DNA from: Eledone cirrhosa
Taxonomy: Eukaryota
Assembly (NCBI GenBank): GCA_964016885.1
Contig: OZ024746.1
Span: 77,438,001-77,502,000, forward strand
Length of the DNA stretch: 64,000 bases
Reading direction: 5' to 3'
This document shows, piece after piece, positions 23,182-40,790 of the stretch (the stretch's first letter is position 1; each line of letters begins with the position of its first letter). Under the pieces are notes generated by a model. That model ran no database searches. It had not been told where the DNA came from and worked only from the letters and a program-made list of their open reading frames with translations. Position numbers and translations under genes: made by a program.

Positions 23182-23219
<38 letters not shown>

Positions 23220-23428
23220 TTCCCGTCCCACACTTGCAAGCAGGGAAAAGCGGACGTAAAATGAAATGATGATATATATATATATATATACAGGCACACA
23301 CACCACATGTTTGTGTGTGTGTATATATGTATCTATCTCTATGTATGTGTAGACACTCACGCATATGTATTTCAAACAAGTTATTTTTTTAAAATTCTTC
23401 ATTGGTATTTTGGGAGTTGTATGTGTGT

Positions 23429-23530
<102 letters not shown>

Positions 23531-23531
23531 T

Positions 23532-23657
23532 GGAGGCACATGGCTAAGTGGTTAGAGCATTGGCCTTGCAATCGAAAGGTTGTGAGTTGAATTCTCAGAC
23601 CGGGTGATATGTTATTTCCTTGAGCAAGACACTTTATTTCACATTGCTCCAGTTTAC
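23532..23657 (+). mobile_element. SINE-A 5' part (tRNA head plus CORE-like region), interrupted
   Basis: Matches 59523-59648; breaks at CCAGTTTAC. Confidence 0.9.
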
Positions 23658-23913
23658 AAACAAACTGAGCTTTATAATAAATGTTCGGTAAACCGATACG
23701 TGCATTTATATATGTGTGCATGTATGTATATATATATACATACTACTGTACGTCTGTATACATATATGTATGTACGTATACATACATACTTACATTTAAG
23801 TAACTGCCATGAGAAATGAAATTTCGTTTCATTCTATTCCATTTATCGTTTTCGGTGCGCCCGGCCGACTAAACTCACTCGATATGCAAATTAGGCTGCT
23901 CAGCCGTTAATAT
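23652..23913 (+). mobile_element. Circularly permuted fragment of the HHR-containing non-coding element at 40.1-40.5 kb
   Basis: 23652-23841 matches the reverse complement of about 40328-40123; 23867-23913 matches the reverse complement of 40544-40498. Confidence 0.85.
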
Positions 23914-23951
23914 ATATGAATAAATAATATATATATATATATATATGAATA

Positions 23952-23987
<36 letters not shown>

Positions 23988-23991
<4 letters not shown>

Positions 23992-24263
23992 TGTTCTTTC
24001 CTTGAGCAAGACACTTTATTTCACATTGCTCCAGTTTACTCAGCTGTAGAAATGAGATGATAGGGACTGGGGTCCCTATCATTCCACTGCAGGGTAGTCG
24101 TGGAGGTGCCACGGCAAAAAAGCACCCAGCAGGTACAGTAAATGAGGTTGGTGTTAGGAAGGGCATCCAGCTGTAGAAATCAAGCCAGAATCAGTTCCCG
24201 TCCCACCCTTGCAAGCAGGGAAAAGCGGACGTAAAATGAAATGATGATGATGATGATGATGAT
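23988..24263 (+). mobile_element. SINE-A lacking the tRNA head
   Basis: Matches the SINE-A body and tail. Confidence 0.92.
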
Positions 24264-24270
24264 ATGAATA

Positions 24271-24307
<37 letters not shown>

Positions 24308-24349
24308 TAAATAATATATATATGAATAAATAATATATATATATGAATA

Positions 24350-24395
<46 letters not shown>

Positions 24396-24403
24396 GTATA
24401 TAT

Positions 24404-26065
24404 ATTAACGAAATGAAAAATGGTAAGGCTGCTGGACCATCGCGAATAGTTGCTGAGATGCTGAAGGCATCAGGGGACGTAGGCACTAAACTGGTTGCAC
24501 GCATCATCAATCAGGCTATATATGGTGGTGTCATACCCAAAGACTGGTGCAGCAGTATTCTCATAAAATGCTACAAAGGTAAAGGGGATGCTCTGGAAAG
24601 GAGCAATTATAGGGGTATAACACTGATGGATCAGGTTATGAAAGTGGTAGAAAGGATATTAGCACAACTAATTAGAGAAAGGGTCAAACTAGATGAGATG
24701 CAGTTTGGTTTTGTGCCTGGGAAGAGTACAACAGATGCCCTCTTCTTGGTGAGACAATTGCAAGAGAGGTTCTTAGAGAAAAATAATCCACTATACTTAG
24801 CCTTTGTTGACCTAGAGAAGGCCTTTGATAGGGTACCCCGATCTGTCATCTGGTGGTCCCTAAGGAAACTAGGTGTTGAGGAATGGCTTGTGAGGACAGT
24901 GCAAACTTTGTTCAGAGATACTCTCAGTAAAGTCAGGGTAGGAATGGAGTTTAGTGAGGAATTCCAGATACAAGTAGGAGTACATCAAGGTTCGGTCCTC
25001 AGCCCGCTCTTCTTCATTATAGTCCTCCAAGCCATAACAGAGGAGTTTAAGACTGACTGTCCATGAGAACTTCTCTATGCTGACGATCTGGTTCTTTAGC
25101 AGAATCAGTAGAGGAGCTAGAGAATAAATTCTGGCTATGGAAACAGCAGTTGGAAGCAAGAGGACTGAGAGTGAACCTAGCTAAGACAAAAGTGTTGATG
25201 AGTAGAAAAGAGAACAAAACTCTGATTCCATCAGGGAAATGACCATGTTCGATATGCAGAAAAGGAACTGGCATAAATTCTATAAAATGCACACAATGCA
25301 GATCCTGGGTATACAAGAGATGTAGTTGGATAGCAGGCAAACTAACAGGTAGGGAGAAATATGTATGCAGTAGATGTACAGGGAAATTAGACAGTAGAAG
25401 TCGCATTGATAGACACATTTTTCAAATGCAGGAGGGTGCTATAGAAGTGGTGGATAGCTTCCAGTACCTAGGAGATCAGATTAGCATGGGAGGAGGGTGT
25501 TCCGAGGCCATAGTATCTAGAATAAGGACGGATTGGAAGAAGTTTAGGGAGCTGCTTCCTCTGCTGACGAAGAAGGGTTTCTCCCTGCGTACGAAAGGCT
25601 GGTTGTATGATGCCTGTGTGAGGAGCGCGATGCTGCATGATAGTGAGACATGGGCAGCAACTGCAGAGGATATGCGACGGCTGGAGAGAAATGAGGCAAG
25701 CATGCTCCGTTGGATGTGCAAGGTGAATGTGCGTGAACGACCCAGCATAAATGTGTTGAGAGAAACTGTGTCTGAGAGGGATAGAATGTAGTGTACGGGA
25801 GAGGAGACTGAGGTGGTATGGACATGTGATGCGCTTGGAGGATGATCGATGGGTGAAGAAGTGCCAGGAAATGCTAGTTGAATGAAGACGTGGTAGAGGT
25901 AGACCACGAAAAACATGGGCGGAGGTGGTGAAAATAGACCTCAGATCATTGAAGCTCACGGTGGAGATGACGAAGGACCGTGACGAGTGGAGAGATGCTG
26001 TGCTGAATAAGACCCGTCCCACCCTTGCGAGCAGGGAAAAGCGGACGTAAAATGATGATGATGAT
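24404..26065 (+). pseudogene. 5'-truncated RTE-clade LINE (RTE-1): RT domain, PHD-like insertion, C-terminus and (GAT)n tail; several stops and frameshifts
   Basis: [94 protein letters not shown] followed by AATGATGATG. Confidence 0.96.
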
Positions 26066-40122: not shown

Positions 40123-40544
40123 TGGAAAAGAATGAAACGAAATTTCATTTCTCACTCTTAGTACGGCTGATACATAAATGTAAGTGTGTATGTATACGTA
40201 CATACATATATGTATACAGACGTACAGTAGTATGTATATATATATATATACATACATGCACACATATATATATATGTACGTATGGGTTTACTGAACATTT
40301 ATTATAATGTTCGGTTAGTTTGTAAACAAACAAACAACCCGAATTACGCCGTACAGTGTTCAGGCAACTATCGTCGCCTTTTTGTTCAACACTGACACAG
40401 GAAGGATGTACTAGTTTCAAGCTTATTAGCTATCGTCAGCATCATATACCTTCCTGCCAGATGGTTCGAACGTCTGAAAGTATATACTTTCCTTATGCAT
40501 ATTAACGGCTGAGCAGCCTAATTTGCATATCGAGTGAGTTAGTC
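40123..40544 (-). mobile_element. Non-coding HHR-containing retroelement monomer (retrozyme-like or PLE pLTR-derived)
   Basis: Contains the HHR, several hairpins and AATAAA; no credible ORF; repeated at 23652-23913 and inverted at 40543-40794. Confidence 0.75.
40392..40460 (-). ncRNA. Type I hammerhead ribozyme with extended, bulged stem I
   Basis: Reverse complement: CAGGAAG-gtatat-GATG-CTGACGA-t-AGCT-aata-AGCT-t-GAAA-CTAG-TA-CATC-CTTCCTG; GUA triplet, predicted cut between 40409 and 40408; palindromic stem III ACTAGT. Confidence 0.88.
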
Positions 40545-40790
40545 ACTCGATATGCAAATTAGGCTGCATTAGAACAAAAGGGTGACGATGGTTGCCTGAA
40601 CACTGTACGGCATAATTCGGGCTGTTTGTTTGTTTACAAACAAACAAACTAAACATTATAATAAATGTTCGGTAAACCCATATGTACATATATATATGTG
40701 TGCATGTATGTATACATATATATATATATGTGTGCATGTATGTATATGTGTGCATGTATGTATACATACTTATGTACATATACATACATA

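What the first reader, a model, noticed from the sequence alone, without database searches (positions are those of the whole stretch)
23652..23913. Circularly permuted copy of the HHR element: evidence for a tandem or circular ~450-nt monomer
Seen: this copy runs through the distal part of the 40-kb element (about 40328 to 40123, minus strand), continues through a 25-nt GC-rich linker (23842-23866, TTTATCGTTTTCGGTGCGCCCGGCC) and re-enters the element at its other end (40544 to 40498), stopping about 40 nt before the HHR. End joins start with no ORF between; monomer is about 422+25 nt. It joins the SINE-A head at a GTTTAC microhomology and about 50 bp of SINE body recurs after it. Inference: the template was a multimeric or circular RNA, as in non-LTR retrozymes.
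Basis: partly seen in the sequence, partly recalled or inferred. Interest (0 to 1): 0.75.

Follow-up and report, generated by a model that had tools for sequence, protein, structure and literature searches.

The report
Penelope-copied hammerhead retrozyme, truncated copy
This is a broken copy of an abundant 440-base head-to-tail repeat that carries a predicted self-cutting RNA, and its sister copies end at two fixed sites as Penelope jumping genes do, so it was likely copied by their enzyme from an uncut multi-unit or circular RNA.

Summary
Observation confirmed. The end-to-start junction is ordinary internal sequence of a ~440-bp monomer carrying a type I hammerhead motif. The genome holds at least 5,980 units, head-to-tail arrays of 25 and 21+ units, and no ORF between the ends in the copies examined. 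That makes it a new member of the metazoan non-LTR retrozymes.
Dispersed copies end at one of two fixed sites about 55 nt apart, mostly next to (TA)n. Mirror-image insertions use one site per arm (29 of 31; 10 of 10), as do three ORF-bearing Penelope-like families here. Copying runs through the cleavage site (30 of 33 arms), so the template was not a cut linear monomer.
Circle versus array transcript stays open. Repeats within an arm share rare variants (18 against 1.1 expected), but one site is discordant about 7-fold too often. No RNA data were available.
The window copy stops at an atypical point inside a rearranged SINE and lacks the ribozyme. The scan reported similar two-armed retrozymes on other DNA of this genome, and those notes supplied the two-arm lead.

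The parts
23652..23841 (+). Distal part of the monomer (reference positions 242-444), with internal TA/CA microsatellite, site B (~392) and the ~55-nt B-to-A tail; 9-nt deletion in the tail
23842..23866 (+). 'Linker' = reference positions 1-25, ordinary monomer sequence; site A lies in its first 3 bases
   Evidence: 783 exact 17-mers
23867..23913 (+). Start of the next monomer (positions 26-72); stops at an ATAT microhomology, before the hammerhead
23530..23657 (+). SINE head, joined to the copy through a 6-nt microhomology; tRNA-like look is recalled, ARAGORN found no tRNA
23914..23986 (+). AT-rich filler made of the same short unit plus (AT)n that follows the SINE tail at about 24263-24395; likely copied from there
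23987..24260 (+). Remainder of the SINE; its first 53 nt repeat 23605-23657 with 2 mismatches
40123..40544 (-). Main arm of the second window copy (positions 26-444), ending at site A
40397..40457 (-). Type I hammerhead motif: CUGACGA core at 40439, 4-bp stem II with U.U at its base, palindromic CUAG helix III, predicted cut between 40409 and 40408
40543..40785 (+). Inverted arm of the second copy (positions ~183-389 plus a 25-nt piece of the monomer start), outer end at site B next to (TA)n

Best explanation
The stretch is a truncated copy of a non-coding ~440-bp tandem repeat with a type I hammerhead motif (a non-LTR retrozyme), likely spread by the enzyme of an autonomous Penelope-like element that copies an RNA with uncut ribozyme sites, slightly more likely a ligated circle than an array transcript. 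Shown: head-to-tail monomers, no ORF, two fixed ends (A and B) beside (TA)n, variable inner ends, one A and one B end in mirror-image insertions, and copying through the cleavage site. Inferred: tandem units are transcribed and cut by paired hammerheads (helix III is a palindrome too short to fold alone). The Penelope protein would nick both strands of a (TA)n target, prime one strand at A and the other at B inside the RNA, and join the two cDNAs at their inner ends. Long insertions later grew into arrays by unequal exchange. The window copy lost or never had its normal end and sits in a local SINE rearrangement. Confidence: retrozyme moved by Penelope machinery about 0.85; circle as main template about 0.5.
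For: Family size and tandem form. No ORF: of 30 copies picked for an altered linker, 27 continue into the monomer start and 3 end in flanking DNA. Ends: of 96 arms, 42 A, 43 B, 11 other. Two-armed pairs are complementary in 29 of 31 classifiable, about 14 same-type expected and 2 seen (arithmetic mine), and in 10 of 10 in a separate sample. Three ORF-bearing Penelope-like families show the same A/B ends: 1 of 1, 4 of 5 and 4 of 4 two-armed loci. This matches the two RT start sites and both-strand activity of PAc (PMC11167929). Read-through: 30 of 33 arms, no pile-up at the cut site, p 0.34. One template per arm: diagnostic sites differ 20 of 444 against 39% between insertions; 18 shared rare variants against a null mean of 1.1, max 6. 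Hammerhead core 90-99% conserved in 229 rows.
Against: No partner was identified: the three Penelope-like families examined show no evident sequence match to the monomer (output cut, by eye). Position 398 is discordant in 26 of 492 adjacent-unit pairs against about 3.5 expected from background transversions; a pure monomer circle does not predict this. Only 12 of 118 arms carry a shared rare variant, and a homogeneous source array would give the same. In L015 and L057 the two arms belong to different subfamilies. The A>G excess is not significant (ratio 1.27, 95% 0.93-1.71). The Rfam score is below threshold (17.7 bits against 52). Cleavage is untested, and 8 of 9 Xenopus dimers did not cleave in vitro.
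Confidence: 0.8

Rival explanations
1. Same element and enzyme, but the template is a linear read-through transcript of genomic arrays whose hammerheads are slow or uncut; no circle is needed.
For: Position 398 is discordant about 7-fold above background and in both orders, 12 and 14. Long arrays exist. [quoted passage not shown] Arms with 2-4 units are common.
Against: Three arrays examined are 3.5-10% different between neighbours, while the youngest arms differ by 0.7-1.5% internally. Multi-unit arms look star-like. Site 398 sits in a quasi-palindrome and may be a mutation hot spot (inference).
Confidence: 0.4
2. RT copies cut linear monomers and jumps from the 5' end of one to the 3' end of another at the GUA site.
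For: Four arms stop within 3 nt of the cut site.
Against: No significant pile-up (p 0.34). The site-30 allele travels with the upstream 398 allele in only 14 of 26 discordant pairs. Diagnostic sites are concordant within arms. A jump back onto the same molecule is not excluded.
Confidence: 0.07
3. These are ordinary pLTR fragments of one autonomous Penelope-like element whose ORF-bearing copies were missed.
For: Same end structure as autonomous elements. Genome searches score only top candidates.
Against: Tail joins monomer start directly in 24 of 30 copies sampled by an internal 23-mer. There are 492 adjacent-unit pairs. No copy runs into an ORF.
Confidence: 0.04
4. This particular copy is a DNA-level patch, copied from a genomic array or another copy during repair inside the SINE, not its own retrotransposition event.
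For: Neither end is A or B. Microhomology at both joins, a 53-nt duplication and filler copied from 300 bp downstream.
Against: Atypical ends are common in the family (11 of 96; 8 of 30) and could come from later deletion between internal ATAT and the flanking (TA)n. This rival concerns the locus only, not the family.
Confidence: 0.3

Closest known systems
Metazoan non-LTR retrozymes of coral, mussel and axolotl (Cervera and de la Pena 2020, PMC7229834; parts 2-4 of 6 read, supplement not read)
   Same: Tandem non-coding repeats of 150-450 bp, GC below 50%, one type I hammerhead per unit. Palindromic tetraloop helix III as in HHR_Amex1; U.U at the base of stem II as in HHR_Amex2.
   Different: Here the dispersed copies show two fixed ends and A/B-paired mirror arms. 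The parts read propose Penelope mobilisation but do not map ends. Cleavage and circular RNA were shown there, not here.
Vertebrate non-LTR retrozymes as PLE derivatives (Li, Clavereau and Pollet 2026, bioRxiv 10.64898/2026.07.22.740005; parts 1-3 of 5 read, supplements not seen)
   Same: Monomers, dimers and multimers; co-occurrence with Penelope-like elements.
   Different: There the link is pLTR homology; here no homologous pLTR was found and the link is the insertion footprint. No mollusc among its 35 genomes.
Endonuclease-positive Penelope-like elements: PAc (Frangieh 2024, PMC11167929, parts 1-2 of 4 read); tail and inverted pLTRs (PMC8557442 and PMC3846280, passages read)
   Same: Two internal RT start sites defining a tail, tail often at only one end, inverted 5'-truncated copy, AT-rich or (TA)n targets, hammerhead in the repeat.
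   Different: No ORF; the unit closes on itself; the tail is about 55 nt rather than 30-40.

Membership tests
Metazoan non-LTR retrozyme | [quoted passage not shown] | tested here: met
   25-unit and 21+-unit arrays; 492 adjacent pairs
Metazoan non-LTR retrozyme | Type I hammerhead motif in each unit | tested here: met
   Core 90-99% conserved, inner stems 90-97% paired in 229 rows; Rfam HH9 only 17.7 bits, E 0.033, below gathering
Metazoan non-LTR retrozyme | No coding capacity between units | tested here: met
   Units abut directly
Metazoan non-LTR retrozyme | Self-cleavage of the RNA | not testable with these tools
   Needs in vitro transcription of monomer and dimer
Metazoan non-LTR retrozyme | Expression as linear and circular monomer RNA | not testable with these tools
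   No RNA holder listed; one natural monomer folds stably as a circle, z -6.5, partly from microsatellites
Penelope-like element footprint | Two fixed 3' ends (tail) and variable 5' ends | tested here: met
   85 of 96 arms end at A or B
Penelope-like element footprint | Inverted arm, tail at one end only | tested here: met
   29 of 31 and 10 of 10
Penelope-like element footprint | (TA)n target preference | tested here: met
   Flanks printed, judged by eye; no genome-wide background computed
Autonomous Penelope-like element (pLTR) | RT plus GIY-YIG ORF between the repeats | tested here: not met
   None in 30 copies with altered linker or in arrays
Derivative of a named Penelope family | Sequence homology to its pLTR | tested here: inconclusive
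   Only three of the genome's families examined; none matched; one shares the hammerhead build

The most novel reading that the evidence does not exclude
A dimeric Penelope enzyme grips one circular retrozyme RNA at two start sites 55 nt apart and rolls round it from both strands of a (TA)n break at once. That would explain the Penelope tail-at-one-end rule and the inverted repeats, and would be genomic evidence of rolling-circle retrotransposition in an animal.
Probability: 0.3. Interest if true: 0.75.

Novelty: new member of a known kind. Interest (0 to 1): 0.45.

Why it matters
Penelope enzymes have been proposed as the movers of animal retrozymes. This family shows their footprint directly, with an almost strict one-A-one-B rule in mirror-image insertions. 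It gives a 440-nt substrate and two predicted start sites, so both the two-strand priming model and circle versus multimer can be tested in vitro. The locus itself is a broken, ribozyme-less copy with no sign of function.

Tried and rejected
Whole-window self-BLAST and Rfam scan were swamped by microsatellites; no hammerhead among the 150 listed of 345 hits. RNA-editing signature: A>G looked enriched (11.0 against 6.7 per 1000) but was not significant by site bootstrap; not used. Pile-up of inner ends at the cut site: not found. Template jumping between subfamilies at the cut site: not supported. Third fixed end at position 72: rejected; of 7 pattern hits 4 stop there, against 5,980 that continue. 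Partner search: three Penelope-like families examined, none homologous. Sequencing runs: no RNA holder listed; no reads were laid, so expression and presence in the second listed organism remain open. Circular folding ran for 1 of 3 monomers. Literature searches for retrozyme plus cephalopod and hammerhead plus Octopus plus Penelope each listed only PMC8557442; a search for two-strand priming listed only PMC11167929. Subscription papers are not covered.

Full report
Observation. Window 23652-23841 matches the distal part of the 40-kb copy (86%), 23867-23913 matches its start (46/47), and 25 nt lie between. The 6-nt microhomology and the 53-nt SINE duplication are real. The AT-rich filler at 23914-23986 repeats the tract that follows the SINE tail. 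The genome is a 3.0-Gb, AT- and microsatellite-rich animal assembly; 'octopus-like' comes from earlier scan notes and recall, not from a test. Positions below refer to a natural 444-nt monomer in L026, numbered from the linker.

Family. The 114-nt junction gave 1,330 candidates, 40 scored, most near 100%. A linker 17-mer has 783 exact matches and an internal 23-mer 5,980; reversed controls gave 0. Nine exact linker pairs lie one monomer apart, and 492 adjacent-unit pairs match a tail 16-mer twice. One array has 25 full units of 416-480 bp; another has at least 21 units of a subfamily 84% identical to the reference. In 30 loci taken by the internal 23-mer, 24 have the junction by the script's rule. 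Of 120 hits with an altered linker, 30 were examined: 27 continue into the monomer start and 3 end in flanking DNA, one of them inside an unrelated Penelope fragment. So the linker is ordinary monomer sequence and there is no ORF.

Ribozyme. The unit has CUGACGA, a 4-bp stem II on a U.U pair, GAAA, a palindromic CUAG helix III and GUA. The core is 90-99% conserved and inner stems are 90-97% paired in 229 distinct rows; one pair changes on both sides in 17 rows, likely one event; two outer stem I pairs reach only 74-78%. The window motif folds with z -3.1 and scores 17.7 bits against Rfam HH9, below gathering. The build resembles the axolotl ribozymes that cut well only as dimers (PMC7229834). 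The finding's copy stops before the motif.

Ends. After dropping 8 duplicate or array loci and 3 mixed-subfamily loci, 96 arms end at 436-447 (A, 42), 374-402 (B, 43) or elsewhere (11), mostly beside (TA)n. Earlier scan notes suggested reading the 5' inversions as second arms, and I tested this. Of 40 two-armed insertions not selected for an end, 31 are classifiable: 29 have one A and one B, 1 is A/A, 1 is B/B; independent choice would give about 14 same-type pairs. The separate sample gives 10 of 10. The 40-kb copy fits: main arm at A, inverted arm at B. Three ORF-bearing Penelope-like families found in fetched loci show the same pattern with tails of about 36, 50 and 60 nt (1 of 1, 4 of 5 and 4 of 4 two-armed loci). 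Published PLE work describes a tail often at one end only and two internal RT start sites with both strands cut and extended. No examined family is homologous to the monomer; one shares its hammerhead build. The partner is unknown.

Template. Of 71 inverted arms, 33 reach the cut site and 30 pass it; inner ends do not pile up there (4 of 55, p 0.34). A cut linear monomer is thus not the main template. Repeated segments within an arm differ at 20 of 444 diagnostic sites against 39% between insertions. In 118 arms (arrays and three copies of a small subfamily dropped), 18 rare variants are shared in 12 arms against a null mean of 1.1, and divergence is 4.5% against 5.3% for same-haplotype units elsewhere. 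This fits one template unit, a circle, but also a homogenised source array. Against a pure circle, position 398 differs in 26 of 492 adjacent pairs (CC 52, CG 12, GC 14, GG 414 by subtraction), about 7 times background. It flips in both orders and both subfamily backgrounds and does not follow the pattern expected from jumping at the cut site. It lies in a quasi-palindrome, so a hot spot is possible. Two insertions have arms of different subfamilies. A>G editing is not significant. Arrays contain blocks duplicated at 0.3-2% among units 6-13% apart, pointing to later unequal exchange.

This copy. It ends at position 72, where only 4 copies stop. It is either an arm later cut back at an ATAT microhomology or a repair patch; the data do not decide.

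Verdict. A real feature and a new member of the non-LTR retrozymes. It works like the terminal repeat of a Penelope element without being an autonomous one. The paired A/B rule on a non-coding element was not found in the papers read (searches); supplements of PMC7229834 and of the 2026 preprint were not seen and may bear on this. Earlier scan notes describe similar two-armed families on other DNA of this genome; e1-8665316 (422 nt) may be a subfamily of this one, not checked. Circularity and cleavage are untested.

Noticed in passing
L070:1903-8469 (G000:C1, about 11 kb before the 25-unit array): Young two-armed Penelope-like insertion: arms 99.3% identical over 2,875 bp, a 1,011-aa stop-to-stop frame with weak RVT_1 hit and GIY-YIG-like motif, hammerhead-like motif in the 3' region, one arm with a ~60-nt tail.
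   Followed up: partly
L227-L256, L287, L288: Abundant young Penelope-like family (Neptune-like by recalled motifs; open frames up to about 775 aa) whose hammerhead has the same U.U stem II base and palindromic helix III as the retrozyme; candidate partner clade.
   Followed up: partly
L224:2390-2520: The short end of a Penelope-like element runs directly into the retrozyme monomer at about position 28, with no (TA)n between; nested insertion or chimera.
   Followed up: no
L029, L037, L005, L007 flanks: Another repeat with a GC-rich hairpin end sits next to several retrozyme copies in (TA)n tracts, sometimes as an inverted pair.
   Followed up: no
L094: Four clustered A>G changes are present in both repeated units of one arm, with no T>C; a single case that would fit an edited circle.
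   Followed up: partly
window 23215-23259: 45-nt SINE 3' fragment between AT tracts, 97.8% identical to 24190-24234; may belong to the same local rearrangement.
   Followed up: no
window 24347-25900: Broken LINE reverse transcriptase ORF (RTE-like, recalled) directly after the SINE and its AT tract.
   Followed up: no
L123-L130 (G000:C1 70.057-70.076 Mb) and L265-L269, L283-L284: Further long arrays of the monomer; the first has higher-order repeats that include identical units five monomers apart.
   Followed up: partly
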